This document shows, in pieces, positions 1-63,199 of a stretch of DNA of 64,000 nt. The stretch lies in contig CAVXXB010000006.1 in the NCBI GenBank assembly GCA_963765585.1, positions 68,007-132,006 on the forward strand, in the 5' to 3' direction. The notes below the pieces were generated by a model. The model had not been told where the DNA came from. It saw only the letters and a list, made by a program, of their open reading frames with translations, and searched no databases. How positions within the stretch are numbered: the stretch's first letter is position 1; each line of letters begins with the position of its first letter. The translations under genes were made by a program, and so were the position numbers. This stretch comes from Calditrichia bacterium (lineage in GTDB: Bacteria; Calditrichota; Calditrichia; JAJRVZ01).

Positions 1-2110
1 TTCTTGCAACATCAATCAGCACTTCCAATTCCTGGGATGATACCTGTAGTGCATTTAATAATCCCTGGTTAATATTCATCAGTTCTCCCAGCTGCTCCAG
101 TTTGTAATCTTCAATTGCTTCTACTGCCTGTAAAGACAAGTCATCAATTTCTTTAAATATCCGGTTATATAGTTTTTTATTATTTTCCCATCTCTGATGA
201 ACGCCGGAGACCATCCGGGCGGTGAGGCTTTCAATACCACTAATCCCGATTACAATGGGTATGGATTTTTTAATTTTCAATTCCTGCATAAATGGTGGTT
301 CACCCTTTTTAAACAGAATGAATTTTCCATATGTCGCCAGTGTGTTATCAATCCCGGACGCATTTCCATGGGCAAGTATTTCAGATTCATATGCCAGTTT
401 ATTAATCTCCTCGGCTGAGAGTTTTAAATCGTATTGATCATCCAGCGCGCGTACGATTGCAACGGCCAATGCGGCTGATCCACCCAACCCCATGGCTCTG
501 GGTATATGGGGCACCACTTCAATTTTCATTCCCCGGTCCTGCAAATTCAGTTTTTCGAGAATCAAATCAAGCGACTTATAAATTGAATATTTATGATCTG
601 CACCCCGTTGTATTTTTTCTTCGACACCCCACCTTGGAATAAGCAGATGCACACCGTTTGAATTATCCCACACTTTCGCCTGCATGGCCAGATTGATTGG
701 CGCTGCGATGGCATGCACGCCATAAATAACAGCATGCTCACCTAATAATATGACTTTTCCATAACCTGAAGGAAATCCTTCAATGGTTTCAGTATCATCA
801 ATCTGGGTAACAAGTTCATCCGTTTGCTCCTGAAAATGTTGTAATATTTCTTTTGCCCGCCAAACCTTGATATTTCCATCTTCTACCAGCCGTTCAACCA
901 CATCATCAAACATTTCCGGCGGTGCGCCGGCAGATACGGCAACACTTCTGGCATGCAATGTCATATGCCCTTGTTGTATTCCTTCGGTGACCAGCGCTTT
1001 GAGTGCCGAGAAATTTTGCGCAAGGCCAACCGCACCCATTACTTCAGCCAGTTCTTTGGATGATTTGACATTTAATATATTCTGTGCAACCCCGACCGCC
1101 GGATTCGATTGTAATGATCCACCAACAATACCGACCTTTAGAGGCAGTTCGATGCAACCAAGAAGATCTCCGTTATCTGCTTTTTCCCAATTAGTCAGAC
1201 TGGTATAATTATTTCCGCGCGCAGCATATGCATGTGCCGCGGCTTCAATTGCCCGCCAATCATTTCCGGTTGCAATTGCTACCGCATCAATACCGTTCAT
1301 AATTCCTTTATTATGCGTCGTAGCACGATATCTGTCGACGGTAGCAAAATCATTGGCCACTATAATTCCGTCTCGTGCTTCCTCACCGCTATAGCCTTTT
1401 CCATCAAGTAATTTTGTCGGAATCCGGCACCTTGCCTTAACCATTGACCGGTCGGTTAGATTGGATAATATTCTTAAGAACACCTTACCATCGCTGATTT
1501 TTTCAATAAGTGATGCGACCGTTTCGCACATGCTGTTTACCAGATTGGCACCCATCGCATCCTGGGTATCGACAATCAGATGTACAACGACCATATCGCC
1601 ACGGTCCGATGATCCGGGATGAATGATCACCTCTACATCTTTGACACCGCCACCACGTGCCACCATCTTCGGGTGAAGACTATTGGCCAGATTGATAATT
1701 TCCTTTTTGTTCTGCATGATCGAATGTTGTGCTTTTGTAGGATGGTCCACATCAACTATCTGGATCTGACCAATCATTAAGGGATCATCACTCTCACAAA
1801 AAAATCCACCTGAATTTCGGATTGTTTTTGCGGCTGAACTTACGGCTGCCACAATGGATGGTTCTTCTACTACCATGGGAATAACATATGGTTTTTCATT
1901 TATCAAAAAATTCAATCCTAATCCAAGAGGCATGCCAAAAACGCCAATCACATTTTCGATCATCTTATCCGCTTCGGAAATTGTCAGAACATTGTCACCA
2001 TTAAAAAATGAAAAATATTCTTCTTTACTCAGGATTCCTTTTTCCCTGAGAATTTCCAGCCGTTCCGGTATTGACATTTTATAAAATTTTGGAATTCTTG
2101 AACGATCCAT
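1..2110 (-). CDS. Class II-type HMG-CoA reductase fused in-frame to a C-terminal GHMP-kinase (mevalonate kinase-like) domain. The 3' end runs off the window edge, so the ORF is absent from the supplied track.
   Basis: I translated the reverse strand by hand from the ATG at 2110. It is open to position 1. HMGR motif DAMGANLVN and ENVIGxxxxPLG are present. Downstream in the same frame are the kinase motifs GKVILLGEHAVIYG and PRAMGLGGSAALAVAIV (GHMP P-loop). A phosphomevalonate kinase and MVD follow on the same strand. Confidence 0.8.
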   Translation of the reverse strand, partial: MDRSRIPKFYKMSIPERLEILREKGILSKEEYFSFFNGDNVLTISEADKMIENVIGVFGMPLGLGLNFLINEKPYVIPMVVEEPSIVAAVSSAAKTIRNSGGFFCESDDPLMIGQIQIVDVDHPTKAQHSIMQNKKEIINLANSLHPKMVARGGGVKDVEVIIHPGSSDRGDMVVVHLIVDTQDAMGANLVNSMCETVASLIEKISDGKVFLRILSNLTDRSMVKARCRIPTKLLDGKGYSGEEARDGIIVANDFATVDRYRATTHNKGIMNGIDAVAIATGNDWRAIEAAAHAYAARGNNYTSLTNWEKADNGDLLGCIELPLKVGIVGGSLQSNPAVGVAQNILNVKSSKELAEVMGAVGLAQNFSALKALVTEGIQQGHMTLHARSVAVSAGAPPEMFDDVVERLVEDGNIKVWRAKEILQHFQEQTDELVTQIDDTETIEGFPSGYGKVILLGEHAVIYGVHAIAAPINLAMQAKVWDNSNGVHLLIPRWGVEEKIQRGADHKYSIYKSLDLILEKLNLQDRGMKIEVVPHIPRAMGLGGSAALAVAIVRALDDQYDLKLSAEEINKLAYESEILAHGNASGIDNTLATYGKFILFKKGEPPFMQELKIKKSIPIVIGISGIESLTARMVSGVHQRWENNKKLYNRIFKEIDDLSLQAVEAIEDYKLEQLGELMNINQGLLNALQVSSQELEVLIDVAR

Positions 2111-2127
2111 GACAAAGCACCTGTGTT

Positions 2128-3168
2128 TTAGTGATCAATGAAGTGAACACCCATTTCTTCTGCTGAGATATCCATAACGTCAATATTTTTACTAACCAGT
2201 TTTTTGTGAAGATCCTGATAGATTGTTTCTGAAGAACAAAAGGCGATTCCCAGATCCCCGCCGCCCGCGCCTGACGGCTTATAAACTGCGCCAAGATTCA
2301 TTACTTCTTCGGCAATATCACAATGATTTTTCGATATAATTGGGATTCCCGCTTTTTCTCCCATAATTTTCATTTGCAGATAGTACTCCTTTACAATATC
2401 TAAGAATGCTTTTGTATCAGTTGAATAACTTTGACAACCCTGATTTGCAAGATCCTTTAGTTTATTAATCAATTCCGAAAATATTTGAGGATTGGACTGT
2501 TGAAATATGTTTAGAGTTTCGAGCATATCACTTGTTGATGCAGCTTCCCCGGACCATATGTATATCATATATAAATCACTGTTTTTATTTACTTTAACGA
2601 CTCCATCAGGTGCAATCACCATTTTATACTTAAGTATGCTTCCAAAAACACTGGCAGCGATATCAATTCCACTCCCCTTTTTCCCCTGTGCAGTAAAATG
2701 AACATCATGACTCATTTTAAATAAATTATCAGGCGAAACTGTATAGTTGTTAAACTCCAACAATGCTTTTAAAATGGCAACTGAAAAAGCCGCACTGGAA
2801 CCCAGTCCCAATTTGCTCCCGGTCAACCGATGATAGAAATCAGATGTATCGGCTGTTATCACACAGGGGTGGAATTTTAAACCATTGTCTTTTAAAAATT
2901 GATACACATGCTGAACAGCATGTTGCGCAAACGTCAGATCGGATAGCACAGGTGTCAGAAATTCTAATTCAGATTGATCATCCAGTCGAAATCTGAATTC
3001 AGAACCGGGTATATTTTTTGCGCGGAAAATGGACTCTTCAGTAATCGATGATTTGACAGTCACTTTGCAATAACGATCGACACTTGTGACAAGTGATTCT
3101 GATCCGTAAAGGACCGCATATTCTCCGATGATAATGAGTTTACCCGGTGCTAACCAAGTTCTATCCAA
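2128..3168 (-). CDS. GHMP kinase, probably ERG8-type phosphomevalonate kinase
   Basis: 346 aa. N-terminal APGKLIIIGEYAVLYG resembles the ERG8-type PMK N-terminus. GHMP motif KLGLGSSAAFSVAIL. It sits between the HMGR-MVK fusion and MVD. Confidence 0.65.
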   Translation of the reverse strand: MDRTWLAPGKLIIIGEYAVLYGSESLVTSVDRYCKVTVKSSITEESIFRAKNIPGSEFRFRLDDQSELEFLTPVLSDLTFAQHAVQHVYQFLKDNGLKFHPCVITADTSDFYHRLTGSKLGLGSSAAFSVAILKALLEFNNYTVSPDNLFKMSHDVHFTAQGKKGSGIDIAASVFGSILKYKMVIAPDGVVKVNKNSDLYMIYIWSGEAASTSDMLETLNIFQQSNPQIFSELINKLKDLANQGCQSYSTDTKAFLDIVKEYYLQMKIMGEKAGIPIISKNHCDIAEEVMNLGAVYKPSGAGGGDLGIAFCSSETIYQDLHKKLVSKNIDVMDISAEEMGVHFIDH

Positions 3169-3169
3169 A

Positions 3170-4153
3170 TTATTTCTCCAGATACGAATCAGGCCCCAGT
3201 TTTGAAGGGATTATTTTTTGAATACCCCTTACTGTTTTTAATGCCGTGAACACTTTTTCCTCATATTCAGGCAGGGTAAGCAGTTTAACCTGTGGCCCGG
3301 CATCGATGGTAAAATATACCGGAATACCCTCCTTGCGCAATTGTTGAACGAGGTGAATAATGATCATGGTCACGTTATTCCAATATATCAGTGCAGGCTG
3401 GGTAGAAATCATGACGGCATGCATTTTGAGACAACTGCTTTCACTTAACTCACCCAATTTTTGGAAATCTTTACTGGCAATGGCCTGGTGCATTTCTTGA
3501 ATATCATTAGCAGAAGTGCTTAACCAGGAGTTATAATAGGCGGATGTATGCGCACTGTTTTCCATGCCGATGGTTGAGTTATAGGTTTTTTCTGCTTCGG
3601 TTGTGACGGCCACCAGCACCCGCAGATCCCAGTAATTTTCATCCTGTATCTGATATGCATGTGCGTCGCTGCCATCTGGTAATTCGCCCATCTTCATTTC
3701 GGCAAATCCGCCAAAAAGTGATCTTGCAGCCGAACCAGACCCTCTTCGGGCCAGAACGGATAATTGTTTTAAGGGGAGGTTTAATCCAAGTGCTTCGGTT
3801 GATGCCAGCGCCAGAGCGGCGAATGCCGAAGCCGAGGACGCTAATCCGGCTCCAGTGGGAAAATTGTTTTCACTGGTAACCGAGGCAAAGATTGAAATAC
3901 GAGATTGAGTTCGGACCAGATCAAGAAACTTGCTAACACGAGCTTGTTTAAGTCCTCTGACGCGTCTACCTCCCAGAATAAATTCATCCTCATTCAGAGA
4001 TTCATCAAACGTCACTTTCGTGCGCGTAGATAACGCATCCAGGGTTATGGAGATGGAACCGACCGCAGGTAGATTGAGGGCAGAGTCACGTTTCCCCCAA
4101 TACTTAATAAGTGCAATATTAGAATGAGCCACGGCAGAAGCAGAATTTTTCAT
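3170..4153 (-). CDS. mvaD: Diphosphomevalonate decarboxylase
   Basis: Signature NIALIKYWGKRD and GHMP fold. The track ORF extends to 4297, but the extra N-terminal residues are a translation of the adjacent repeat. The true start is probably MKNSASAV at 4153. Confidence 0.8.
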   Translation of the reverse strand: MKNSASAVAHSNIALIKYWGKRDSALNLPAVGSISITLDALSTRTKVTFDESLNEDEFILGGRRVRGLKQARVSKFLDLVRTQSRISIFASVTSENNFPTGAGLASSASAFAALALASTEALGLNLPLKQLSVLARRGSGSAARSLFGGFAEMKMGELPDGSDAHAYQIQDENYWDLRVLVAVTTEAEKTYNSTIGMENSAHTSAYYNSWLSTSANDIQEMHQAIASKDFQKLGELSESSCLKMHAVMISTQPALIYWNNVTMIIIHLVQQLRKEGIPVYFTIDAGPQVKLLTLPEYEEKVFTALKTVRGIQKIIPSKLGPDSYLEK

Positions 4154-4204: not shown

Positions 4205-5640
4205 ATGTAGGTTGCAATTCAGGAGGCAAGATACAGGATGCAAGATGCAGGATACAGGATTCAGGATGCTGGATGCTCGGTACTCGCAACTCGGCACTCG
4301 CTTCTCGGCGCTCGCCGCTGGATGAATAAAATTGTTCCCGATAACTGGTACAAAAATGCATTATTATTGCTCATCTACCTTTTACAAAAGCCCCGAAGGG
4401 GCTAAATATTTGTAGCCGCGGGCAAGGCCCGCGGTGGAAGATACATCCCACAACCCATAACCCCGAAGGGGTTAAATAAATGCTCACACATCGGGAAGAT
4501 TCCTGCGGAATGACAGGCAGGAGACAATATACAGATTCAGGATGCAGGATGCATCGGTGCTCGATACTCGGCACTCGTCAAGATGCTAGGATGCTCTGTA
4601 CTCGCAACTCGGCACTTACCGCTGGCCAATCTATCTTTTAGAAAAGCCCCGAAGGGGCTAAACAATTATAGCCGTGGGCGCAGCCCACGGTAGAAGATAC
4701 ATCCACAACCCATAACCCCGAAGGGGTTAAATAAAAACTCACACACGGGAAGATCTCTGCGGAATGACAGGGCAGGAGACAAGATACAGGATCAGGATTC
4801 AGGATACAAGATGCTCGATGCTGGATACTGGATTCAAGATGCTGGATGCTCGGTTCTCGGTACGCGGCACTGGCCGCTGGCCAATCATCATTCAGATAAG
4901 CCCCGAAGGGGCTAAATAATTATAGCCGTGGGCGCAGCCCACGGTAGAAGATGCATCCACAATCCATAACCCCGAAGGGGTTAAATAAAAAATCACACGA
5001 CGGGATGATCTCTGCGAGATGACATGGCAGGAGACAAGATACAGGATTCAGGATTCAGGATACAAGATGCTCGATGCTGGATACTGGATTCAAGATGCAG
5101 GATGCTCGGTACTCGCAACTCGGCGCTCGCCGCGTGGCCAATCATCATTCAGAAAAGCCCCGAAGGGGCTAAAAATTATAGCCGCGGGCAAGGCCCGCGG
5201 TAGAAGATACATCCACAACCCATAACCCCGAAGGGGTTAAATAAATACTCACACGATCGGGAAGATCTCCTGCGGAGATGACAGGACAGGAGACAAGATA
5301 CAGGATTCAGGATTCAGGATACAAGATGCTCGATGCTGGATACTGGATTCAAGATGCAGGATGCTCGGTTCTCGGTACGCGGCACTGGCCGCTGGCCAAA
5401 TCATCATTCAGATAAGCCCCGAAGGGGCTAAATAATTCTAGCCGCGGGCAAGGCCCACGGTAGAAGATACATCCAAAACCCATAACCCCGAAGGGGTTAA
5501 ATAAAAAATCACACGACGGGATGATCTCTGCGAGATGACAGAGCAGGAATCAGGATACAGGATACAAAATTCTGGATACTGGATGCTGGATGCTCGGTTC
5601 TTGGCACTGGACGCAGGATAAAAGTCCTTCTCCATAGGAT
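4205..5640. repeat. Tandem array of a ~256-bp composite structured repeat: 5 full units starting at ~4387, 4643, 4897, 5153 and 5412, plus a leading partial unit. Each unit holds four hairpins and a ~90-bp degenerate 7-bp-periodic tract.
   Basis: Direct reading. Each unit contains, in order: AAAAGCCCCGAAGGGGCTAAA; TAGCCGYGGGCRMRGCCCRCGGT; AACCCCGAAGGGGTTAAATAAA; GATCTCTGCGAGATGACAG or GATTCCTGCGGAATGACAG; then (GGATNCA/GATGCTN)n. Stem differences between copies are compensatory. Confidence 0.9.
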
Positions 5641-5737: not shown

Positions 5738-6193
5738 TTACTCAATCACCTTCGTTATCGTAAAAAAAGATCGATTACTTTCGGCCATATTTTTAGAGAT
5801 ATTTCTGGAGATTAACGCACTGATGCCCAATCCGGCAAGTCCACCTGCAAAGAAAAGTAATTCCTGATGAATTCCGGCAATAGTAAAGTCAATTATATAT
5901 AGAACTATAATTCCCAGCAAAAAACCGATAAAAGGAATGCCATATTGCACGGCTGATACTTTTAGTAGAAAATCTGAGGACTCGCTGATGGCTACACGAT
6001 TGCCGACACCGGCATTTAAAGGATTTGAGACTTTTAATGCTCTTTTTCCGTCCTTATCCGGGACACATAACACCCTGGCACCACAATTTTCGCATGCAGG
6101 TTGTATGTTCAACTCGACAATGGCATTGCCATTCTGAACCTGCGTGATAATTCCGGTTTCAAAATCCTGGGCACCGGACTCCTGATTAGGCAC
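5738..6193 (-). CDS. rseC: RseC/MucC-family protein (SoxR-reducing-system component often linked to rsx/rnf operons)
   Basis: 151 aa. N-terminal Cys-rich region (CENCGARVLC) followed by two predicted TM helices. Immediately downstream of rnfB in the same operon orientation. Confidence 0.55.
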   Translation of the reverse strand: MPNQESGAQDFETGIITQVQNGNAIVELNIQPACENCGARVLCVPDKDGKRALKVSNPLNAGVGNRVAISESSDFLLKVSAVQYGIPFIGFLLGIIVLYIIDFTIAGIHQELLFFAGGLAGLGISALISRNISKNMAESNRSFFTITKVIE

Positions 6194-7028
6194 TTTCAGC
6201 CACTTCCTTTTCAGGCATCGGGCTCATATTCAAAACAACCAGACCGTCGGTCGGGCATTTTTCTACCGGAAAATCTGTGTCGGTACCATACACATTATAA
6301 TTGATTACAGCCAGGTTATTATCCATAACCATATTTGTTTCACCGGCAACCCGGGCACAGATACCACATCCCACGCAGGCACGGGTACATATTTTGCGGG
6401 ATTCCTTTGGTGAATCATGGTTCTTACAAAGGACAAACAATTTATGACTTTCAGGGTGTAATTCAATAATATCCCGTGGGCATGCTTCAACACAATTTCC
6501 ACATCCGGTGCATTTTGCATCGATCACCACCGGCAAACCATTATCGTTCATAAAGATGGCATCAAATGGGCATGAGGCAACACAATCAGCAAATCCAATA
6601 CAGCCATAGCTGCATAGTTTATCGCCACCACCGGCAAAAGTTGCGGCCACACAGGTTTCGATTCCATCATACACACCTTTTTTCGCCGTTTCTGCTTCAC
6701 CGCCCTGACAAAATACGCGGGCCAACATACGATCCGATTGTTCAACTTCCACACCGAGTATTTCCGAAATGGCAATTACCGCATCATCCGTACTTACCGG
6801 ACAGGCTGACGGTGCCATTTCGCCATTGACCACAGCTTCGGCAAACTTACCACATCCCGGTAATCCGCATCCGCCGCAATTTACACCCGGCAGTTCTTCT
6901 ACCACCAAAGCGATTCGCGGATCTTCCTCTACGTGTAACTTTTTATTTGCAATGGACAACCCGGCTGAAAAGATAATACCGAGCCCGCCCATACTGGCTA
7001 CTGAAATTAAAATTGATCCAAGATCCAT
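6186..7028 (-). CDS. rnfB: Rnf electron-transport complex subunit B (polyferredoxin)
   Basis: N-terminal TM helix, the CGGCGLPGCG motif, and multiple CxxCxxCxxxCP 4Fe-4S motifs. Confidence 0.8.
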   Translation of the reverse strand: MDLGSILISVASMGGLGIIFSAGLSIANKKLHVEEDPRIALVVEELPGVNCGGCGLPGCGKFAEAVVNGEMAPSACPVSTDDAVIAISEILGVEVEQSDRMLARVFCQGGEAETAKKGVYDGIETCVAATFAGGGDKLCSYGCIGFADCVASCPFDAIFMNDNGLPVVIDAKCTGCGNCVEACPRDIIELHPESHKLFVLCKNHDSPKESRKICTRACVGCGICARVAGETNMVMDNNLAVINYNVYGTDTDFPVEKCPTDGLVVLNMSPMPEKEVAESA

Positions 7029-7059
7029 GCTTACCTCATATTATGATTTATCCAAAAAA

Positions 7060-7180
7060 CATGCTATTTGATTAGAGATTAGAAATGAGAGATGAGAGAT
7101 GGTAATCGGTAATTAGTTATTTTTTCTTAGGAATTTGGCAGATCATTCCAAATCTCTAATCTCTAATCTCTAATTTCTAA
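7060..7180. repeat. Imperfect inverted repeat built from (AGAGATT)n heptamers, with ~35-bp arms and a ~50-bp spacer, lying between rnfB and rnfA
   Basis: Left arm gattagagattagaaatgagagatgagagatgg. Right arm ccaaatctctaatctctaatctctaatttctaatc, which is its reverse complement with mismatches. Confidence 0.7.
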
Positions 7181-7759
7181 TCATACCGATATCAGCCCGG
7201 CAAAACCCATAAAAGCCAGTGCCAGCGAGGCTGCGACGATCATGGTAATTCCGGCGCCTTCAAATGGTTTTGGTACTTTGGCAAGTTCCAGTTCCTCACG
7301 GATACCCGCCATAATTACGATGGCCAGGGTAAATCCGGCACCCGCACCAATTCCAAATACCAGACTTTCCATAAAATCATATTCACGGAGTACTGAAAAC
7401 AATGCCAGACCCAATATGGCACAATTTGTCGTAATGAGCGGCAGGTAAATACCCAGCGCATCATACAGAGGTTTACTTATTTTTCGTACAAACATTTCAA
7501 CCAGTTGCACCAATGATGCAATAACCAGAATAAATGAAACATACTGTAAAATTTCCAACTGGAATGGCACCAGAATCAGATTATAAATCAACCAGGTAAC
7601 CGCGGCTGTAATTGTCATTACAAACGTTACTGCCATCCCCATACTCACCGCAGATGATATTTTTTTTGAGACGCCAACAAAGGGACAGATTCCCAGGAAG
7701 TATGACAAGACAAAGTTATTTACAACCGCCGCAGATACAAATAATAAGAAAAATTTCAT
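7181..7759 (-). CDS. rnfA: Rnf complex subunit A
   Basis: 192-aa polytopic membrane protein of the RnfA/NqrE family, in rnf operon context. Confidence 0.8.
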   Translation of the reverse strand: MKFFLLFVSAAVVNNFVLSYFLGICPFVGVSKKISSAVSMGMAVTFVMTITAAVTWLIYNLILVPFQLEILQYVSFILVIASLVQLVEMFVRKISKPLYDALGIYLPLITTNCAILGLALFSVLREYDFMESLVFGIGAGAGFTLAIVIMAGIREELELAKVPKPFEGAGITMIVAASLALAFMGFAGLISV

Positions 7760-8370
7760 GCCTTGGCCCTCCTGTCATTGATCCAGTTAGTTAGGGCAAT
7801 AAAGAATCCCAATCCCAGAAATGCACCTGGCGGTAAAATCATCACCATCCATGGTGTAAACCAATCACCAAGAACTGTAAAACCAAATAAGGTTCCAGTA
7901 CCCAGTATTTCCCGGAACCCACCAAGAACAATTAATACAAATATAAATCCCACACCCATACCAGAGCTATCCAGCAAGGATTTACCTATACCATTTTTTG
8001 AAGAAAATGCCTCCTGCCGGCCTAGAATCAGACAGTTCACCACGATCAGTGGCACATATGGACCAAGTGCTTTACTGATATCTGGAAAATATGCGGCCAG
8101 AAACCTGTCAGCCACGGTTACAAAGGTGGCAATAATAACGATATAACTGGCAATTCTAACCTGATGGGGTATCACTTTTCTGAGTAAAGATATAATAATA
8201 CTCGAGTGAAGTAACACAAATGTAGTCGCCAATCCCATGGCCAAACCGTTAATCGCCGAGTTGGTAACAGCCAGAACCGGACAGAGCCCAAGTAATGAAC
8301 TTAATACCGGATTCTCAGCCCATAAGCCTTTTGCAAATTCAGCCGCTGCAGAAATCTTTGATTTTGCCAT
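7756..8370 (-). CDS. rnfE: Rnf complex subunit E
   Basis: 204-aa membrane protein of the RnfE/NqrD family, adjacent to rnfA. Confidence 0.8.
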   Translation of the reverse strand: MAKSKISAAAEFAKGLWAENPVLSSLLGLCPVLAVTNSAINGLAMGLATTFVLLHSSIIISLLRKVIPHQVRIASYIVIIATFVTVADRFLAAYFPDISKALGPYVPLIVVNCLILGRQEAFSSKNGIGKSLLDSSGMGVGFIFVLIVLGGFREILGTGTLFGFTVLGDWFTPWMVMILPPGAFLGLGFFIALTNWINDRRAKA

Positions 8371-8389
8371 TCTTTATCCTTCAGTTTAT

Positions 8390-8998
8390 TTACAAAACCT
8401 CTTTTGCCGGCCCGGATGGGGCAGAGGTATATGCTTGTCTTACCTTTTTAATATAATCATTCAATATATTTACAACTGCCTGTGATGAAATCGTCGCCCC
8501 TGTAATGGCCTGAATATCATACGGATTAGTGGGCTTGACATTTTTCACCACACCAATCTGAGGTTCTGTCTTTAGTTTTTTGAACTGATTGGGAAACCAG
8601 TATGGATCTTTTTTATTTGACGGATCAACCACAATTTTTGTACCCAAGCCCGGGGTTTCTATCTGCTCTAGAATTTTGATCCCGGTTATTTCCGTAAAAT
8701 CCATGGTCAAACCAACCATGATCGAGACTTTACCCTGAAATCCGCTTCCCACTGCTTCACAGGCGACACCAACCGGTTGTCCATCCTGATCTTTGCCAAC
8801 ATAAAGTGTAATGCCATTATTGACAATCTCATCATATTCCTGATATGGCGGTAACACTTCAGAGATGGCTTTCTTTAATTCGGCAAGTTTATGGGCTTCA
8901 ATTTTGGGTTTTGTAATTCCATCCCACGTTGAAAGCAGACCACCGGAAAACATTGTAATCACTGTTAATACAACAATCATTTTTTGTGTCGTGGTCAT
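8390..8998 (-). CDS. rnfG: Rnf complex subunit G (FMN-binding)
   Basis: Single N-terminal TM helix. FMN-attachment motif AITGATISS. Confidence 0.75.
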   Translation of the reverse strand: MTTTQKMIVVLTVITMFSGGLLSTWDGITKPKIEAHKLAELKKAISEVLPPYQEYDEIVNNGITLYVGKDQDGQPVGVACEAVGSGFQGKVSIMVGLTMDFTEITGIKILEQIETPGLGTKIVVDPSNKKDPYWFPNQFKKLKTEPQIGVVKNVKPTNPYDIQAITGATISSQAVVNILNDYIKKVRQAYTSAPSGPAKEVL

Positions 8999-10092
8999 AT
9001 TTTTACCTCACCGAATATTTTTGGTCTGGTTTTACGGTTTATGATCGGTGTAAATGCATTCATCAACAGAATTGAGTACATCACACCCTCGGGTACCCCG
9101 CCAAATAACCTGATCACGATAAGAATGATACCTGCGCCAATACCAAATATATAGGATCCGCGCGGCGTGATCGGTGATGTTACCATGTCAGTAGCCATAA
9201 AGAAAGCACCTAACATTAAACCACCTGAGAGAAGATGAAACAATGGATTCGCATAATCCTCAGGTGACGTTAGCCAAAAGATACCACTCAGGATAAATAC
9301 GGTACCAATATAGCTGACAGGGATGCGCCAGTCGGCATATTTTCTGATCAACAAAAATGCACCACCCAATATAACGGCCAGGGCAGAAGTTTCTCCCAGC
9401 GAACCTGCGATATTACCTACCAACAGATCGTTATACCCTGTCAGAATTTTCTCAAATTTGAATATCCCCAGAGGTGTCGCTGCCGTAACCGCATCAACCG
9501 CAGCAAATTTTTCCGTTTGCGGAAAAGTCCATGTTGTCATGGCAACGGGAAAACTGGCCTGGAGAAATGCACGACCCAGCAATGCCGGATTAAAAATATT
9601 ATATCCCAGACCACCAAATACCTGTTTGCCGATCGCAACGGCAAAGATCGAGCCCAGTATTGCCGCACTCAGGGGTAATGAAGGCGGAAGCGTCAATGCC
9701 AGTAACAAGCCGGTAATGGCAGCACTGCCATCACCAATTGTGAAGGATTCGCCCTTCATTTTGTTCATCAGCATTTCTGTTAAAAGCGCCGTGATGATAC
9801 AGACTGTAATTAAAATTGCAGCTGACATACCGAAATAATAAACGGCCATGGCTGATGCCGGTACTAAAGCGGCAACTACTGACCACATTATTTTAGGTAC
9901 GCTATCCGTTGTTACAAAATGAGGTGAAGAGGAAATCAACAGAGGTGTGCCCTCTGGTTTCCACAATTTTGCTCTGGGATCCGGTTTTGGTTTTGGAGCA
10001 GGTGGTGTTGGTTTTTCCACTACCGCCTGTACAGGTTTCTCTTCCGGAACTGGTTTTTCTTGCGCTTCTTCAGATGTTTTATTCGTTTCCAT
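8995..10092 (-). CDS. rnfD: Rnf complex subunit D
   Basis: 365-aa polytopic membrane protein of the RnfD/NqrB family, with a proline/lysine-rich N-terminal extension. Confidence 0.8.
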   Translation of the reverse strand: METNKTSEEAQEKPVPEEKPVQAVVEKPTPPAPKPKPDPRAKLWKPEGTPLLISSSPHFVTTDSVPKIMWSVVAALVPASAMAVYYFGMSAAILITVCIITALLTEMLMNKMKGESFTIGDGSAAITGLLLALTLPPSLPLSAAILGSIFAVAIGKQVFGGLGYNIFNPALLGRAFLQASFPVAMTTWTFPQTEKFAAVDAVTAATPLGIFKFEKILTGYNDLLVGNIAGSLGETSALAVILGGAFLLIRKYADWRIPVSYIGTVFILSGIFWLTSPEDYANPLFHLLSGGLMLGAFFMATDMVTSPITPRGSYIFGIGAGIILIVIRLFGGVPEGVMYSILLMNAFTPIINRKTRPKIFGEVKI

Positions 10093-10105
10093 TTGATCTC
10101 TCTAA

Positions 10106-11467
10106 CTAGGCAACTTTTTTGCGTTTATTTTCGGTAACTTTCATTTTGCCAACCCTGATCCACTGTACAAGCGGTATATGAGACGGGCAAACATACGCAC
10201 ATGAGCCACATTCAATACAGTTTAAAATTCCAAGATTATTCGCTTCATCCCATTGTGCCATTTCAGAAAAACTTGCCAGACGGGTCGGCAGTAAATTCAT
10301 CGGACAGGCCAGGACACAACTTCCGCATTGGATACATGGGTACGTTTTGGATTTATTGATTGTGGATTCTGTTTTGCATACAATACCACTGGTAGCCTTT
10401 ACCACTGGAACGGATAATTCATATTGGGCAAATCCCATCATAGGGCCACCCATAAATATCTCGACCGTTTTTTCGTCAAGTCCGCCACAAAAATCAATGA
10501 CTGAGCGGAATGGCGTTCCAATCCGGGTCAGAACATTTTTTGGCTCTTTGATCCCTTCTCCGGTAACCGTGACTACGCGTTCAATCAGCGGCTTACCATC
10601 CAGAATTGCATCGGCAACTGAGAGTGCGGTGCCTACATTGTTAACTACAGTGCCCACATCCATCGGCAATCCACCGGCAGGAACTCTTCGTTTAACAACT
10701 GCTTCGATTAGCATTTTTTCGGCACCCTGGGGGTATTTTACTTTTAATGGAATTACTTTATAGGGTAGTTTTTTTGCGGCGATCAGTTCGGACATATGCT
10801 TGATCGCATCGGGCTTGTTATTTTCAATACCGATATATCCATTTTCCGTGCCAAGCACTTTCATAATGATTGCCATGCCAATCAGCATTTTTTCACCCAT
10901 TTCCAGCATAGCACGATGATCGGCTGTCAGATAAGGCTCACATTCTACACCATTGAGAATAAAAGTATCAATTTTTTTCTCTCTGGGCGGGGCAAGTTTT
11001 ACGTGAGTGGGAAATGCAGCACCACCAAGGCCCACGATACCGGCATGCCAGATTGCGTCACGCAACTTTTCAATCGGGGTATTCTGCCAATCATCAAATG
11101 CCGGCAGTTTTTCCCATTCATCATCACCTGTGCGCTCGATATGTATCATAGTGACTTTCATTCCCAGCGGATGCAGGAATGAATCAACCGCTTTAACCTT
11201 TCCTGTTACGGATGCATGAACCGGACTGGAAACAAATTTTTCACTTTCTCCAATCACCTGACCGGTTTTTACCTCAGCCCCTTTTTCCACCAGTGGTTCG
11301 CCGGGAACTCCAATATGCTGCTGGAGAGGGATAAATACCTCTTCCGGCACCGGCATTACTTCAATGGGTTTCTGATTGGTATATTCCTTATGATCATGCG
11401 GATGCACACCCTTTTTAAAAGTCGGTAATTTCAATCTGTTTCCTCTCTTTATATATAGCTGAACCAA
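10106..11467 (-). CDS. rnfC: Rnf complex subunit C (NADH-binding, 2x[4Fe-4S])
   Basis: 453 aa. C-terminal CIQCGSCVLACP and CIECGSCAYVCP ferredoxin motifs. First gene of rnfCDGEAB. Confidence 0.85.
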   Translation of the reverse strand: MVQLYIKRGNRLKLPTFKKGVHPHDHKEYTNQKPIEVMPVPEEVFIPLQQHIGVPGEPLVEKGAEVKTGQVIGESEKFVSSPVHASVTGKVKAVDSFLHPLGMKVTMIHIERTGDDEWEKLPAFDDWQNTPIEKLRDAIWHAGIVGLGGAAFPTHVKLAPPREKKIDTFILNGVECEPYLTADHRAMLEMGEKMLIGMAIIMKVLGTENGYIGIENNKPDAIKHMSELIAAKKLPYKVIPLKVKYPQGAEKMLIEAVVKRRVPAGGLPMDVGTVVNNVGTALSVADAILDGKPLIERVVTVTGEGIKEPKNVLTRIGTPFRSVIDFCGGLDEKTVEIFMGGPMMGFAQYELSVPVVKATSGIVCKTESTINKSKTYPCIQCGSCVLACPMNLLPTRLASFSEMAQWDEANNLGILNCIECGSCAYVCPSHIPLVQWIRVGKMKVTENKRKKVA

Positions 11468-11599: not shown

Positions 11600-12390
11600 C
11601 TTCAGGAATTAATTTCAAAGAGAAAGTGGATACGGGGCACAGGGTGCGGGATTCAGGAGACAAGATGCCGGATGCTGGATACTGGATGCTCGTCACTGGG
11701 CACTCGGCACTGGCCAAATCATGGAATATTTGGCCCCGATTTACCGACCGGAGAGAGGTGTTGTTATCGGGAATGCTGGATTCTCGGTACTGGATGAAAA
11801 AAGGTTTCCATACTACCCATTAAAAAAAGCCCCGAAGGGGCTAAACATTCTAGCCGCGGGCAACGCCCGCGGTACAGGATCCATCCACAGCCCATAACCC
11901 CGAAGGGGTTAAATAATAATTTACACGACGGGAGGATCCTGCGAGATGACAGACCAGAAAACAGGATGCAGGATTCTCGGTTCTAGGCACTTGGTACTGG
12001 CACTCGCTTCTCATTTCCGGATGCTTGCCGTTGAATGGGTATAATAATTCCGTATGACTGGAATAAAAATGCATTGTTATTGCTCATCTACCGTTTACAA
12101 AAGCCCCGAAGGGGCTAAACAATTCTAGCCGTGGGCGTAGCCCACGGTGGAAGATCCACCCACAACCCATAACCCCGAAGGGGTTAAATAATTGACCACC
12201 CATCGGGAAGATTCCTGCGGAATGACATGGCGGGATTCAAGATACAGGATCCAGGCTTCAGGTCCCAGGTTTAGGATCACCGAGTGGTCCTGGAGCCTGG
12301 TACCTTACTCCTTGGTCCTTGTACCTTGAGCCTAGAACCTACCTGTATCCTGTATCCTGCATCCTGAATCTATTCCTCCGCCTCTGGCTT
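11600..12390. repeat. Second array of the ~256-bp structured repeat family: 2 units (hairpin blocks start at ~11825 and ~12099) plus flanking heptamer tracts
   Basis: Carries the same AAAAGCCCCGAAGGGGCTAAA, GCCGCGGGC..GCCCGCGG, AACCCCGAAGGGGTT and ..CTGCG..ATGACA hairpins as the 4205..5640 array. Confidence 0.85.
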
Positions 12391-24589: not shown

Positions 24590-24845
24590 TTATACAAGAT
24601 ACAAGATACAAGATACAGGATTCTGGATGCGGGATACTCGGCACTGGGCACTCGCTCCTCGTTACTGGATGCTGGATGCTGGATGCTGGGTAAAAGATGC
24701 AAGATACAGGATATTTCACAAATGAAAGTGCATGTGAAAAAGCTAGCCCCGAAGGGGCTAAACAATTCTAGCCGTGAGCGTAGCCCACGGTGGATGATAC
24801 ATTTACAACCCATAACCCCGGAGGGGTTAAATTATTGTAGGAGAT
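24590..24845. repeat. Single copy of the ~256-bp structured repeat family (heptamer tract plus hairpins), immediately upstream of the 24850 gene
   Basis: Contains (caagata)n / ggatgct tracts, then AGCCCCGAAGGGGCTAAACAATTCTAGCCGTGAGCGTAGCCCACGGTGGATGATACAT…AACCCCGGAGGGGTTAAAT. Confidence 0.8.
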
Positions 24846-27955: not shown

Positions 27956-28223
27956 CAAATTTAAAAGCGCTTTCTGCTTTCGGCTATCCGCAATCAGCGA
28001 CTTTTTGTTTATAAGTATTTATCGAAAAATCAGGGCGGAAAGCCGATAGCAGATGGCAGGAAAACAGGATACGGGATACAGGACACAAGAGGCTGGATGC
28101 TGGATAAGAATTTATGTGGTTTTCAATTCAACAATTTCCAACTATCCTGTTATCCTGTCTAAAAAAATATCTGCGCCAAACTATAATTCTCGAACCCAGA
28201 TGTTGCGGTAGCTGACCGGGTTA

Positions 28224-31207: not shown

Positions 31208-33651
31208 TTATTCTACCATCCATTCATATACACCGAGAATTTGCTCATTTTTGGCGGTGGCCTCCAGGCGGATGGCATTGGTGCGGACGGTTTCGAACTC
31301 AACCAGGTTAAATTCCCCTGGTCTGGTGCCATACTCCTGCTCGGTAAAGACCCGAACCCATTTATCATTTGATTTATAAACCACTTTCCAGGAATCGGGT
31401 ATTTGGCATTTCTGATCCGAGACCCAGGAGACTGCAACCGCTGACAGCTCTTCCCGGTTTGGAAAATTGTATTCAACCCAGTAAATGCCAGATGTATCCG
31501 CAGACCAGGTAAAATAATCAGGTTTTACATTATTTGGCTTGGATAGTGATAACTGATCATTCAAAGCATTGGGATTTTCTCCTGCAGAGTATTTTATCAT
31601 CGCATTCATTGAAATTGGTGGAGAATTAACAGGCTCTGCAGCCGATGCCTCATCGGCCAGCCAGACACTCATGGCACCCTTACCCCTGTGTGCCCAGGCA
31701 TAATACGGGACCAATTTTATTTCCTGAACCGATTCAATTAAGTTCTGATTATCCGGATCATAATCCAGGGCTTTGACCTGACCCGAGATCATCTGAATTC
31801 CGTTTAGCAGCTCGGGATGAAATTCAGAATGAAAGCTGGTCGTATCATTTAAAACCAGATTCGTTATCTTTCCCTGATTATTATCAACTGACTCGGCACA
31901 AAAAACAATCGGACCTCTTTGCAGTGCTATTTTATTGATATTTGTTTCCACTTCTTCATTGGTTACAATTTTTCTCACCGGCATTGGTAATTTCAGATTA
32001 ATGATATCATCCTTTTTCCATTTTCTCCGGAACGCTGCGTATCCATTAACCAAGGTATAGTCTACATTTTCCCCATTAATCGTGATTAAAATTCTGCGTG
32101 ACTCTTTTTTTAAGTATTTATACAGATCTCCGGGAACCGGTTCGTTTTGCGCCCATCCTGGTATGCGAATATTTAATGTGAAAAAACAGGGCGTATCGGG
32201 ATTCAGGGAAATATTGATATCTCCTTCCCATGGATATTTGGTTTTTTGCGATATGCCAATTCTGGTGTTATCTACAATCAGTTCTGCGTCATTGTCTACA
32301 AATAAATTAATATAAGCCGCCGCCGGTGCAGTAGCATATATATAACCCGGCAATGAAGCCATGAATCGCGTAATATTCCCAGGGCAACAGGCACAGCGAA
32401 ACCAAGAACTTCTCTGGTCATGTCCTTTGGATTGCAGCACATTTGGATAAAAAAATTGTGTGCCGTCAAGTGAAATTCCGGATAATAATGCATTATACAT
32501 GGTTCGTTCCATCACATCAATATATTTTGCATCACCATTTAGCTGAAACATGCGATGATTCCAGAATACATTGGCCACCGAAGCACAGGTCTCATCATAT
32601 GCACTGAGATTTGGCAGATCGTACTCCGGACCAAATGCTCTCACCATAAGCTTACCGAACCGAGACCGCCGGTGATATGCATTTTTTTATCGACCACGTT
32701 TTCCCAGAGCAGATCAAGTGGACTTTGATAAGTATCATCGGATGTGAGAATAGTAATATCCGCCATGGCCGAATACATGTAAGCGGCACGCACCGCATGG
32801 CCTACGGCTTCAGTCTGTTCACTCACCGGTTTATGATCCTGCCAGTATGATCCATTTTGCCACATATCCATACTGGAAGGATCATATTTTTTATGCCCTC
32901 TCTGCTTTAGAAAAAAATCGGCCAGATCCAGATACATAGATTCACCAGTTACCTTGTATAGTTTGACCAGGCCCAATTCTATTTCCTGGTGTCCGGGAGG
33001 CTCCTCTATCTTTCCCGGTCCAAATTCATTTACAATCAGATCAGCATTCTTTATGGCAACGTCCAGTAACTTTCGCTTACCGGTGGCCTGAAAATATGCG
33101 ACCGCCGCTTCATAAAGATGCCCGGCACAGTATAGTTCGTGTCCCGAACTGACATCCGACCATCTTTCTGCTGTACCGGACCAGCTACTCGGTGGTTTGT
33201 TGGGATCTATGGTACGCCAGGTCATAAGATATCCATCATCTTCCTGAGCCGCAGCAATAATATCAATCAGGCTGTCCACATAGGATTCCAGTACCGGGTC
33301 AGGATAAGTTTGAAAAGAATACGCGGTACCCTCAATAATTTTATAGACATCACTGTCATTGAAAGGATAAACACCCTGATATTCACCTGTTTTTAAACCT
33401 GCTGCAATTTCAAAGTTTTGTATGCGGCCGGTATTTTCACACATCTTAAATGAATGCGGAATGGTTACCTGCTGGTTTGTTTTGATGCGTGGACCCCAGA
33501 AATTGTCGGTGATTTTTACTTTGGTAAATGAGACCGGGGTAATCCTCTGTTCTGTGTTGTTAAGGGAACAGGAGGCAAATATTACCAGTAGTAGCAAAAT
33601 GTAATAGGGATGATTCATTTTTTTATCCTGGATTTGTTTGTTAGGGTTCAT
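31208..33651 (-). CDS. Glycoside hydrolase family 127 (DUF1680, beta-L-arabinofuranosidase-like), frameshifted near 32640..32670
   Basis: N-terminal ORF: signal peptide plus the DUF1680 N-domain, ending …HITGGLGS. C-terminal ORF: …FGPEYDLPN…CCPGN… The frames differ by one nucleotide in ggtaagcttatgg. Confidence 0.7.
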
Positions 33652-36954: not shown

Positions 36955-37135
36955 GTAGTAGTCATCCTGGGTGCTGTTTCTTGAATCGTGTCCCATGTCA
37001 TTCCGCAGGAATCTTCCCGACGTGTGGGCATGTATTTAACCCCTTCGGGGTTAGGGGGTGTGGATGTATCTTCCACCGTGGGCTACGCCCACGGCTAGAA
37101 TTGTTTAGCCCCTACGGGGCTCTTTATTAACGGTA
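36955..37135. repeat. Single inverted-orientation copy of the hairpin block of the ~256-bp structured repeat
   Basis: …GTCATTCCGCAGGAATCTTCCCG…TTTAACCCCTTCGGGGTTAGG…CCACCGTGGGCTACGCCCACGGCTAGAATTGTTTAGCCCCTACGGGGCTCTTT, the reverse complement of the unit seen at 4640..4760. Confidence 0.8.
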
Positions 37136-37353
37136 GTTTGTTCTAATTTCGCAGCAGCATTTTCTTGATTTGTCATACTGAATGGTCATTTCAACCACTG
37201 CTAAATCTTCTCATAATACCTTTAAGTTGAGCCTATAACCGGGTATCATGCATTCAAAAAACACAACCCCCTGGCCCCCTTTTTTAAGGGGGAAATATTT
37301 CATTCTGCAACCAGTACCGAGTGCCGAGCGCCGAGTATCTAGTGTCGAGCCAC

Positions 37354-43192: not shown

Positions 43193-43264
43193 TCCGGCGT
43201 AGTCAGCTGGTAGAGCGGGTGACTGTTAATCATTAGGTCGTAGGTTCGAGTCCTACCGCCGGAG
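43193..43264 (+). tRNA. tRNA-Asn (anticodon GTT)
   Basis: Acceptor stem TCCGGCG/CGCCGGA. Anticodon loop CTGTTAA. T-arm GTAGG-TTCGAGT-CCTAC. Discriminator G. CCA not encoded. Confidence 0.8.
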
Positions 43265-62806: not shown

Positions 62807-63199
62807 TTAAAATTAAGATGATATAATCCTGTCAGAATTGCTTTTAAATGCAAAATGTTTCAATTCAGTCCAAATTTAAATCGGAAATTAGTAAATTTCA
62901 CCAAAAATGATGATAAATCTTATTCCTATCTTACTAAATTAGTAATTAGTTATTTGTAATTGGGAACTGGGGAATCAGTTGGCAGTAGGCCGTAGACGGT
63001 TAGCGAAACTACCAGTTGTAAGGAACGGTCTAAGACCGTTCCGGGTCTCAAAATGATAACTTATCTGTCATTACGAGGAGTCCTCCAACAAAGGACGACG
63101 AAGTAATCCCGTTCTCCGACTTTGATTGCAGATATAAATTCTTGATTATCCTGATTTAATTCTTAAATTGTCCGATGTCCGTGGGGGTGTTTCACAAAA

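What the first reader, a model, noticed from the sequence alone, without database searches (positions are those of the whole stretch)
1..4153. Mevalonate pathway operon with an HMG-CoA reductase–mevalonate kinase fusion gene
Reading the reverse strand from 2110 to the window edge gives one uninterrupted ORF. It starts with a class II-like HMGR (DAMGANLVN) and continues without a stop into a GHMP kinase with mevalonate-kinase-like motifs (GKVILLGEHAVIYG, PRAMGLGGSAALAVAI). An ERG8-type phosphomevalonate kinase and MVD (ALIKYWGKRD) follow. Two points are unusual. Bacterial MVA operons normally encode HMGR and MVK separately; the known fusion is thiolase-HMGR (MvaE), not HMGR-MVK. And MVA-pathway use is itself atypical for FCB-type bacteria, which mostly use MEP. 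The fusion ORF is invisible in the supplied track because it runs off the window edge.
Basis: partly seen in the sequence, partly recalled or inferred. Interest (0 to 1): 0.55.

Follow-up and report, generated by a model that had tools for sequence, protein, structure and literature searches.

The report
Natural HMG-CoA reductase–mevalonate kinase fusion
The window edge carries a real gene that joins two consecutive mevalonate-pathway enzymes (HMG-CoA reductase and mevalonate kinase) into one protein; this fusion is common in public genomes from several bacterial phyla but is labelled there only as "HMG-CoA reductase", and I found no paper describing it.

Summary
On the minus strand, 2110→1 is one stop-free frame of 703 codons; the other two frames have 42 and 62 stops. 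The full protein (P0001) is 749 aa. Residues 1-425 are a complete class II HMG-CoA reductase, 426-444 a variable linker, and 445-749 a mevalonate kinase. Both domains score above NCBIfam trusted cut-offs, and the catalytic residues of both are conserved in 17 diverse fusions.

It is not an assembly artefact. The same architecture occurs in more than 120 protein clusters at 64% identity or higher, in at least 15 full-length 50%-identity clusters reaching down to 33-35% identity, and as a single ORF in about 42 GTDB species genomes. These include cultured Caldithrix abyssi and Cryobacterium psychrotolerans.

It sits in a conserved cassette: MVD, probable PMK, HMGR::MVK, type-1 IDI. Rough trees suggest one main origin plus a second, independent fusion in an Ignavibacteriaceae MAG. 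HMGR-MVK-IDI triple fusions also exist.

Mevalonate-pathway use is not unusual here: a 2026 survey lists C. abyssi as mevalonate-only. Databases name the protein only as HMGR, and no paper on the fusion was found.

Verdict: a genuine bifunctional enzyme, biochemically unsurprising, under-annotated and apparently undescribed. Moderate interest.

The parts
836..2110 (-). HMG-CoA reductase domain (class II) of the fusion, residues 1-425, including the C-terminal flap region
   Evidence: PF00368 scores 369.7 bits over residues 14-387. TIGR00532 scores 406 bits against a cut-off of 260. Residues 4-425 align to residues 5-424 of the 428-aa P. mevalonii HMGR 1qax, E 1e-118. E83, K268 and D284 are invariant and H382 is conserved in at least 90% of 17 diverse fusions.
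779..835 (-). Inter-domain linker, residues 426-444 (QHFQEQTDELVTQIDDTETIEGFPS region)
   Evidence: No profile or PDB chain covers it. It varies in sequence and length across fusions. AlphaFold pLDDT is below 50 for residues 430-442, between the last HMGR helix (416-430) and the first MVK strand (451-456). The DNA has no stop and no frame change.
1..778 (-). Mevalonate kinase domain of the fusion, residues 445-703 within the window; the last 46 residues, with the KLTGAGGGG motif, lie beyond the window edge
   Evidence: TIGR00549 scores 213.5 bits against a cut-off of 163, and PF00288 scores 69 bits. PDB mevalonate kinases 2hfs, 6mde and 4hac match residues 445-747 at E 1e-42 to 1e-39. K452, E458/H459, S545, E577, D588 and K711-T713-G714 are conserved. 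The full C-terminus is seen in P0001.
2128..3168 (-). GHMP kinase, probable phosphomevalonate kinase (346 aa), ending 17 nt upstream of the fusion start
   Evidence: The best NCBIfam hit is TIGR01220 PMK at 127 bits, below its cut-off of 165.7; TIGR00549 MVK scores 96 bits. The best PDB hit is 3k17 (Listeria Lin0012), E 1e-26, followed by S. pneumoniae PMK 1k47/3gon. The gene holds the same position in about 35 related cassettes.
3170..4153 (-). Diphosphomevalonate decarboxylase (MVD, 327 aa), first gene of the cassette
   Evidence: TIGR01240 scores 299.9 bits against a cut-off of 171. The phosphomevalonate-decarboxylase model NF040704 scores only 200.8 against 475. PF22700 and PF18376 both match.

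Best explanation
The gene encodes a genuine bifunctional enzyme. An N-terminal class II HMG-CoA reductase reduces HMG-CoA to mevalonate using two NAD(P)H. It is tethered by a flexible linker of about 20 residues to a C-terminal mevalonate kinase, which phosphorylates that mevalonate with ATP. The gene is the third in a tightly packed biosynthetic cassette: MVD, probable PMK, HMGR::MVK, type-1 IDI. This cassette makes IPP and DMAPP by the classical mevalonate route. In this lineage it is probably the only route, because the cultured relative C. abyssi is scored as mevalonate-only. Shown here: the continuous ORF, the identity of both domains, conservation of the catalytic residues, and the conserved cassette across phyla. 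Inferred: the fusion fixes a 1:1 stoichiometry and keeps two consecutive steps together. Because the kinase step is effectively irreversible, it may also pull the readily reversible class II reductase in the biosynthetic direction. The fusion most likely arose from adjacent hmgr-mvk genes by loss of the stop codon and intergenic spacer. That adjacent, unfused order is still seen in Virgibacillus and Myxococcus. The cassette then probably spread between phyla as a unit.
For: The frame is open for 703 codons while the other frames carry 42 and 62 stops. A second assembly with 7 nucleotide differences encodes the same protein. Both domains exceed curated equivalog cut-offs and match solved HMGR and MVK structures end to end. 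The catalytic residues of both domains are invariant or nearly so in 17 fusions that are 33-67% identical to the window protein. The 120 best-scoring database proteins (64% identity or more, all 100% query coverage) all carry PF00368 + PF00288 + PF08544; 119 are 744-771 aa and one is a 715-aa partial. At least 15 full-length 50%-identity cluster representatives exist. In the genome scan, 42 of 49 loci with both domains have them in one ORF, partial contigs included; the taxa include Calditrichaceae, Woeseiaceae, Rhodanobacteraceae, Nevskia, Acidobacteriota, a Nakamurella MAG and cultured Cryobacterium. The order MVD-PMK-HMGR::MVK-IDI is conserved in about 30 loci. IDI in relatives scores above cut-off, with TIGR02150 at 156-158 bits. 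In the window's own strain the gene after the fusion starts 8 nt downstream with an IDI-like N-terminus. HMGR and MVK identities to the window co-vary across loci, and fused proteins form one clade in both rough NJ trees. C. abyssi and Woeseia are listed as mevalonate-only.
Against: No biochemical data exist for any member, and no PDB chain spans both domains. The AlphaFold model has modest confidence (mean pLDDT 73, pTM 0.50), and the inter-domain geometry is not resolved. Channelling and kinetic pull are therefore pure inference. HMG-CoA synthase and thiolase were not found among the window ORFs I scanned. The rest of this genome was not available, so pathway completeness and absence of the MEP pathway in this particular organism are not shown. 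NCBIfam's best HMGR model is named 'degradative'. The PMK assignment is below the trusted cut-off. The NJ trees have no support values.
Confidence: 0.87

Rival explanations
1. Artefact: two separate genes (hmgr and mvk) were joined by a sequencing or assembly error that removed a stop codon or hid a frameshift at the junction.
For: The ORF runs off the window edge, and the source is probably a metagenome assembly. Unfused adjacent hmgr-mvk genes do exist in other bacteria (L045, L048, L049, L051, L055, L062).
Against: The identical architecture is found in more than 120 independent clusters, in two complete assemblies of the C. abyssi genome, in the cultured Cryobacterium psychrotolerans, and in about 42 species genomes. 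A second assembly with 7 nucleotide differences has the same ORF.
Confidence: 0.01
2. Roles swapped or different: the fused GHMP domain is not the pathway's mevalonate kinase. It could be a PMK or a kinase with another substrate, with the neighbouring 346-aa GHMP kinase acting as the real MVK.
For: GHMP kinases cross-hit each other. The neighbour scores 96 bits on the MVK model, and its PMK score is below the cut-off.
Against: The fused domain scores 213.5 bits on the MVK equivalog, above cut-off even though truncated, but only 50 bits on PMK. The neighbour scores higher on PMK (127) than on MVK (96). The best solved relatives of the fused domain are all mevalonate kinases. The neighbour's best solved relative is Listeria Lin0012; mevalonate kinases (6mde, 4hac) and S. 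pneumoniae PMK (3gon, 1k47) follow at nearly equal, far weaker scores, so the PDB ranking does not separate PMK from MVK for it.
Confidence: 0.05
3. Catabolic or regulatory reading: the reductase works in the degradative direction, as in Pseudomonas mevalonii. Alternatively, one domain is a catalytically dead regulatory appendage.
For: The best NCBIfam model is 'HMG-CoA reductase, degradative', and the closest solved structures are proteobacterial enzymes that include P. mevalonii's. One divergent fusion (P0136) has lost several conserved HMGR residues.
Against: The gene is embedded between MVD/PMK and IDI, which are biosynthetic genes. A kinase acting on mevalonate is pointless in a pathway that oxidises mevalonate. 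Catalytic residues of both domains are conserved in the window protein. C. abyssi is scored as having only the mevalonate route, so the enzyme must be biosynthetic there.
Confidence: 0.04

Closest known systems
MvaE (acetoacetyl-CoA thiolase / class II HMG-CoA reductase fusion of Enterococcus faecalis and relatives)
   Same: It is a natural bifunctional mevalonate-pathway protein containing a class II HMGR. The HMGR half of MvaE-type proteins matches the window protein (PDB 7m1z/7m3h, E 2e-86). MvaE-like architectures with HMGR at the C-terminus also appear in the representative search.
   Different: In MvaE the partner is a thiolase at the N-terminus, and the two activities are steps 1 and 3, which are not consecutive. 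Here the HMGR is N-terminal and the partner is a C-terminal GHMP kinase catalysing the next step. No thiolase domain is present.
Stand-alone class II HMG-CoA reductases (P. mevalonii 1QAX; 6DIO; 6P7K; S. pneumoniae 5WPJ)
   Same: Residues 4-425 align over the whole length of these enzymes at E 1e-104 to 1e-122. The catalytic Glu/Lys/Asp/His are at almost the same numbering.
   Different: Those enzymes end about 3-5 residues after the point where the window protein continues into a linker and a 305-aa kinase.
Stand-alone mevalonate kinases (Leishmania 2HFS, Methanosarcina 6MDE/4HAC, S. aureus 2X7I)
   Same: The GHMP fold motifs I-III and the catalytic Lys/Asp are conserved. The fused domain aligns to them across nearly the full chain length.
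   Different: Here the kinase has no free N-terminus; it is fused behind the HMGR flap region.
Adjacent but unfused hmgr-mvk genes in Virgibacillus, Paucisalibacillus, Myxococcus and Corallococcus (L048, L051, L049, L062, L045)
   Same: The gene order hmgr then mvk is the same, on the same strand, with short spacers of tens to about 200 nt. MVD, and PMK where detected, lie nearby.
   Different: These are separate ORFs in the order HMGR-MVK-MVD-PMK, with 30-35% MVK identity to the window. They fall outside the main fused clade in rough trees.
IspDF bifunctional enzyme of the MEP pathway
   Same: It is another naturally fused pair of isoprenoid-precursor enzymes, widespread in bacteria (mentioned in PMC13001223).
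   Different: It belongs to a different pathway with unrelated folds, and it catalyses non-consecutive steps.

Membership tests
Class II HMG-CoA reductase (TIGR00532 / PF00368) | Profile score above the curated cut-off over the full domain | tested here: met
   TIGR00532 scores 406.2 bits against a cut-off of 259.95, covering profile positions 19-395 of 395. PF00368 scores 369.7 bits. The class I model TIGR00533 scores only 48.6 against 441.8.
Class II HMG-CoA reductase (TIGR00532 / PF00368) | Catalytic Glu83, Lys267, Asp283 and His381 (P. mevalonii numbering, from established enzymology) are present | tested here: met
   E83, K268 and D284 are invariant, and H382 is present in at least 90% of 17 diverse fusions and in the window protein.
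Class II HMG-CoA reductase (TIGR00532 / PF00368) | Reduces HMG-CoA to mevalonate; cofactor preference | not testable with these tools
   This needs an enzyme assay.
Mevalonate kinase (TIGR00549, GHMP superfamily) | Equivalog profile above the cut-off and better than other GHMP models | tested here: met
   TIGR00549 scores 213.5 bits against a cut-off of 163.05 on the truncated 703-aa product. The next non-MVK GHMP models score 52 bits or less.
Mevalonate kinase (TIGR00549, GHMP superfamily) | GHMP motifs I (GKxILxGEH), II (PxGxGLGSSAA) and III (KLTGAGGGG), plus the catalytic Asp | tested here: met
   GKVILLGEHAV, PRAMGLGGSAALAVA, KLTGAGGGGA and SGIDN (D588) are all present and conserved.
MvaE-type thiolase-HMGR fusion | An N-terminal thiolase domain fused to the HMGR | tested here: not met
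   There is no thiolase hit. The HMGR begins at residue 1 and the extra domain is a C-terminal GHMP kinase.
Classical (eukaryote/Gram-positive type) mevalonate lower pathway cassette | Diphosphomevalonate decarboxylase rather than phosphomevalonate decarboxylase | tested here: met
   TIGR01240 scores 299.9 against a cut-off of 171.35. NF040704 scores 200.8 against 475.
Classical (eukaryote/Gram-positive type) mevalonate lower pathway cassette | A GHMP-type phosphomevalonate kinase | tested here: inconclusive
   The best model is TIGR01220 at 127.1 bits, below its cut-off of 165.7. The assignment rests on this being the best hit, on PDB 3k17 and 1k47, and on a conserved position in the operon.
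Classical (eukaryote/Gram-positive type) mevalonate lower pathway cassette | An IPP isomerase linked to the cassette | tested here: met
   Type-1 IDI lies directly downstream in C. abyssi and L004, with TIGR02150 at 158 and 156 bits against a cut-off of 105.8. In the window's own strain only the first 36 aa are available; they align to those IDIs.
Complete mevalonate pathway in this organism | HMG-CoA synthase and acetoacetyl-CoA thiolase present; MEP genes absent | not tested
   Neither enzyme was among the 20 window ORFs scanned with Pfam. The rest of the genome was not available. For the relative C. abyssi, a published survey lists mevalonate-only.

The most novel reading that the evidence does not exclude
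HMGR::MVK is a functional two-step module in which the tethered kinase captures mevalonate at the reductase, making the reversible class II reductase effectively unidirectional. The four-gene cassette MVD-PMK-HMGR::MVK-IDI, sometimes extended to an HMGR-MVK-IDI triple fusion, would be a horizontally mobile isoprenoid-precursor unit. On this reading it has been installed, probably in place of the MEP pathway, in at least five phyla, including abundant sediment groups (Calditrichota, Woeseiaceae). Fusion would have been selected at least twice independently.
Probability: 0.3. Interest if true: 0.55.

Novelty: new variant of a known kind. Interest (0 to 1): 0.38.

Why it matters
Both enzymes and the pathway are textbook, so the biology is not surprising in kind. 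Three things give it value.

1. The architecture joins two consecutive mevalonate-pathway steps. It appears undescribed in the searched literature although it is widespread, including in cultured strains that could be studied at once.
2. Databases label the protein only as "HMG-CoA reductase (degradative)". Automated pathway reconstruction may therefore miss the mevalonate kinase step, or read the gene as catabolic, in Calditrichota, Woeseiaceae and other environmentally abundant groups.
3. A naturally optimised HMGR-MVK (or HMGR-MVK-IDI) fusion is a ready-made compact part for isoprenoid metabolic engineering. It is also a clean system for testing whether fusing consecutive enzymes gives channelling or thermodynamic pull.

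Tried and rejected
- **Leftward extension.** The look-up of encoding contigs for P0001 returned only a 2.8-kb Logan contig, not the 139.6-kb record. Only 36 aa of the downstream gene could be read, so mvaS, thiolase and MEP genes could not be checked in this genome.
- **Literature.** Eight searches on HMGR/MVK fusion, Caldithrix, Calditrich*, Woeseia, gene fusion and class II HMGR found no description of a natural HMGR-MVK fusion; a ninth search, Caldithrix abyssi + isoprenoid, also found nothing relevant. The library is open-access only, so absence is not proof. Hoshino & Gaucher 2018 mention trimming proteins fused to a different protein without naming them.
- **Structure.** AlphaFold2 on a 36-sequence alignment gave a mean pLDDT of 73 and pTM of 0.50. 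The domains and a disordered linker are recognisable, but the inter-domain packing is not reliable. I make no claim about active-site proximity and did not run fold search.
- **Artefact, swapped-kinase and degradative readings.** Considered and rejected (see rivals).
- **Rfam.** No RNA family was found in or next to the operon.
- **Internal start for the MVK domain.** I saw no in-frame ATG in the DNA of the linker and MVK start (residues 404-470). I did not check GTG/TTG starts or a ribosome-binding site.


Full report

Yes. Translating window 1-2110 on the minus strand gives 703 codons without a stop, beginning MDRSRIPKFYKMSIPERLEIL. Over the same 2.2 kb the other two minus-strand frames have 42 and 62 stops, and the last in-frame stop upstream is at 2137. 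An open frame this long is not chance in a 40.7% G+C sequence. The mechanical ORF list omits it only because it runs off the window edge. All four quoted motifs are present.

The complete product is in public collections as P0001. It is 749 aa and 100% identical over the 703 residues; the missing 46 residues include the GHMP motif III, KLTGAGGGGA. A separate Logan assembly (L001) differs at 7 of 2508 nucleotides, has no gaps, and encodes exactly the same protein.

**2. What are the two halves?**

- **Profile searches.** Pfam finds HMG-CoA_red at residues 14-387 (369.7 bits) and GHMP_kinases_N at 510-594. NCBIfam equivalog models give class II HMGR TIGR00532 at 406 bits (cut-off 260). They give mevalonate kinase TIGR00549 at 213.5 bits (cut-off 163), even though the domain is truncated. 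Every other GHMP model scores 52 bits or less, and the class I HMGR model scores 49 bits against a cut-off of 442.
- **Solved structures.** Residues 4-425 align to residues 5-424 of the 428-aa P. mevalonii enzyme (1qax, E 1e-118), and similarly to 6dio, 6p7k and 5wpj. Residues 445-747 align to whole mevalonate kinases (2hfs, 6mde, 4hac, 2x7i; E 1e-42 to 1e-37). No PDB chain covers both halves.
- **Domain boundaries.** The HMGR is complete, including its C-terminal flap region. The linker is only about 20 residues (426-444), at window 779-835.
- **Catalytic residues.** I aligned 17 fusions that are 33-67% identical to the window protein. The HMGR residues E83, K268 and D284 are invariant, and H382 is conserved in at least 90%. 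These match Glu83/Lys267/Asp283/His381 of P. mevalonii, which I take from established enzymology. In the kinase half, K452, H459, S545, E577, D588, K711 and G714 are invariant, and E458 and T713 are conserved in at least 90%. Both halves therefore look catalytically competent.
- **Predicted structure.** The AlphaFold2 model has a mean pLDDT of 73 and pTM of 0.50. It shows the two folds separated by a segment with pLDDT below 50 (residues 430-442). The relative domain orientation is not reliable.

**3. Neighbours.**

The cassette lies on the same strand and is tightly packed.

- **MVD, 4153→3170.** TIGR01240 scores 300 bits against a cut-off of 171. The phosphomevalonate-decarboxylase model is far below its cut-off.
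- **Probable PMK, 3168→2128.** This 346-aa GHMP kinase has its best model in TIGR01220 PMK at 127 bits, below the cut-off of 165.7. Its best solved relative is Listeria Lin0012 (3k17); mevalonate kinases and S. pneumoniae PMK follow at similar, much weaker scores.
- **The fusion** starts 17 nt further on.
- **IDI downstream.** In L001, which is the same species, the next gene starts 8 nt after the fusion's stop. Its first 36 residues align with the type-1 (Nudix) IPP isomerases that follow the fusion in C. abyssi and in L004 (TIGR02150 at 156-158 bits against a cut-off of 106).

The cassette is therefore MVD, probable PMK, HMGR::MVK, IDI. HMG-CoA synthase and thiolase were not among the window ORFs I scanned, and the rest of the genome was not available.

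Upstream on the same strand lie a 256-nt tandem repeat array and an RseC + rnfBAEGDC cluster. L004, whose fusion is 76% identical, shares the Rnf and RseC gene order with the window. A T9SS sorting domain elsewhere in the window and the named nearest relatives (Calditrichaeota, KSB1) place the organism in or near Calditrichota, in the FCB group.

**4. Artefact or biology?**

Biology. The evidence is as follows.

- The 120 best database proteins (64-100% identity, 100% coverage) all carry PF00368 + PF00288 + PF08544. All but one 715-aa partial are 744-771 aa. They come from NCBI, ENA, JGI and Logan assemblies.
- An exhaustive HMMER search of 50%-identity representatives found at least 15 full-length fused representatives, down to about 35% identity, plus fragments that span the junction.
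- In the scan of GTDB species genomes, which was capped so counts are lower bounds, 49 loci had both domains and 42 had them in one stop-free ORF. Six had adjacent separate genes and one was ambiguous.
- The fused loci include Calditrichaceae/Caldithrix, Woeseiaceae, Rhodanobacteraceae, Nevskia, Chiayiivirga, other Gammaproteobacteria, Acidobacteriota/Thermoanaerobaculia, a Nakamurella MAG and an Ignavibacteriaceae MAG. They also include the cultured Cryobacterium psychrotolerans, whose domains were confirmed by Pfam.
- Both complete assemblies of the C. abyssi genome have the fusion.

**5. Evolution (rough).**

About 30 loci share the order MVD-PMK-HMGR::MVK-IDI. HMGR and MVK identities to the window fall together across loci: 80/73, 70/67, 61/50 and 52/40%. 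In neighbour-joining trees without support values, these fused proteins form one clade in both the HMGR and the MVK tree. The unfused Virgibacillus/Paucisalibacillus and Myxococcus/Corallococcus pairs fall outside that clade. Those unfused genomes have the order hmgr-mvk-MVD, followed by PMK where it was detected. This is a plausible picture of the pre-fusion state.

The Ignavibacteriaceae MAG L050 has a fused ORF (Pfam-confirmed) but the hmgr::mvk-MVD-PMK order. It groups with the unfused myxobacterial genes in both trees, which suggests a second, independent fusion.

Further extension also occurs. P0122 (Desulfobacterales MAG, 952 aa), P0124 (928 aa) and a 944-aa stop-free frame in Woeseiaceae L038 add the IDI (Nudix) domain, making HMGR-MVK-IDI triple fusions. 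Class II HMGR also occurs fused to squalene/phytoene synthase, polyprenyl synthase, epimerase-type and cyclase-like domains. It is evidently a frequent fusion partner.

**6. How it most likely works.**

- **Shown:** one polypeptide carries intact catalytic machinery for two consecutive steps, in a biosynthetic operon.
- **Inferred:** HMG-CoA is reduced to mevalonate, and the tethered kinase phosphorylates it.
- **Inferred:** the fusion guarantees equimolar expression and proximity. Class II reductases are readily reversible, and the P. mevalonii enzyme works catabolically (established knowledge). An attached, effectively irreversible kinase may therefore commit flux to synthesis.
- **Consequence:** a 2026 survey lists C. 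abyssi and Woeseia as mevalonate-only (PMC13001223 supplement). On that basis the fusion enzyme is probably essential in those organisms.

**7. Comparison with what is known.**

The known natural HMGR fusion is MvaE, a thiolase-HMGR pair whose steps are not consecutive and whose partner is N-terminal. This protein fails that membership test because it has no thiolase domain. It is a full member of both the class II HMGR family and the mevalonate kinase family.

Bacteroidetes are listed among the main mevalonate-bearing phyla (PMC6107057), and several Bacteroidota genera as well as C. abyssi are scored as mevalonate users.

I found no paper describing a natural HMGR-MVK fusion. One evolutionary study mentions trimming unnamed fused partners. 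A 2026 review of bacterial isoprenoid pathway diversity mentions only IspDF as a fusion. Source annotations call the protein only "hydroxymethylglutaryl-CoA reductase (degradative)".

**8. Verdict.**

The finding is real and correctly interpreted. It is not rare in sequence space, and the biochemistry is expected. However, the architecture appears undescribed and under-annotated, has cultured representatives, and has evolved more than once. I rate it a new variant of a known kind, of moderate interest (0.38).

Noticed in passing
window 4386-5594 (related 7-nt periodic sequence from about 4200); dispersed copies at 11639-12262, 24668-24832, 28064-28106 and 36964-37140 (-): There is a tandem array of 4.7 copies of a 256-nt unit (88% matches, TRF score 1779) immediately upstream of the MVD gene. 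Each unit has a run of 7-nt periodic motifs (CAGGATA/CAGGATG/CTGGATG/CTCGGTA...) and three small GC hairpins (for example AGCCCCGAAGGGGCT and AACCCCGAAGGGGTT). Partial copies sit in other intergenic gaps of the window. It matches no Rfam family and none of the 84 related loci. It looks like a genome-specific REP/MITE-like intergenic repeat.
   Followed up: partly
L038:5962-8793; proteins P0122 and P0124: Triple fusions HMGR-MVK-IDI (928-952 aa), with the Nudix-type IPP isomerase in frame after the kinase, occur in a Woeseiaceae MAG, a Desulfobacterales MAG and a Pseudomonadota MAG.
   Followed up: partly
L050:5899-8238 (Ignavibacteriaceae MAG): This HMGR::MVK fusion has the different gene order HMGR::MVK-MVD-PMK. 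In rough trees both of its domains group with unfused myxobacterial genes, so it is probably an independent fusion event.
   Followed up: partly
proteins P0156, P0162, P0164, P0173, P0165, P0197, P0227: Other class II HMGR fusions exist in metagenomes: HMGR + squalene-hopene-cyclase-like domain, HMGR + NAD epimerase/dehydratase, HMGR + squalene/phytoene synthase + epimerase, and HMGR + polyprenyl synthase + squalene/phytoene synthase. Several proteins of about 750 aa have a C-terminal half of about 350 aa with no Pfam hit.
   Followed up: no
window 5738-11467 (-): A complete Rnf-type ion-translocating ferredoxin:NAD+ oxidoreductase cluster (rnfC, D, G, E, A, B) plus an RseC/MucC-like gene lies upstream of the mevalonate cassette on the same strand. 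The relative L004 has the same Rnf and RseC gene order.
   Followed up: yes
window 31208-33651 (-): ORF 31208-32647 starts mid-way through the GH127 catalytic domain (profile positions 275-375). The preceding ORF 32641-33651 overlaps it by 7 nt. This may be a frameshifted or split beta-L-arabinofuranosidase gene. The upstream ORF was not scanned.
   Followed up: no
window 63173-63272 (+) and 43193-43264 (+): There is a TPP riboswitch (72.7 bits, above the gathering score) and a tRNA gene.
   Followed up: no
L031:7321-8657 (Nakamurella lactea MAG): The MVK part of the fusion matches in two pieces (7321-7800 and 8238-8657) separated by about 440 nt, and the stop-free frame ends at 8280. This could be an insertion or an assembly problem inside the kinase domain.
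   Followed up: no
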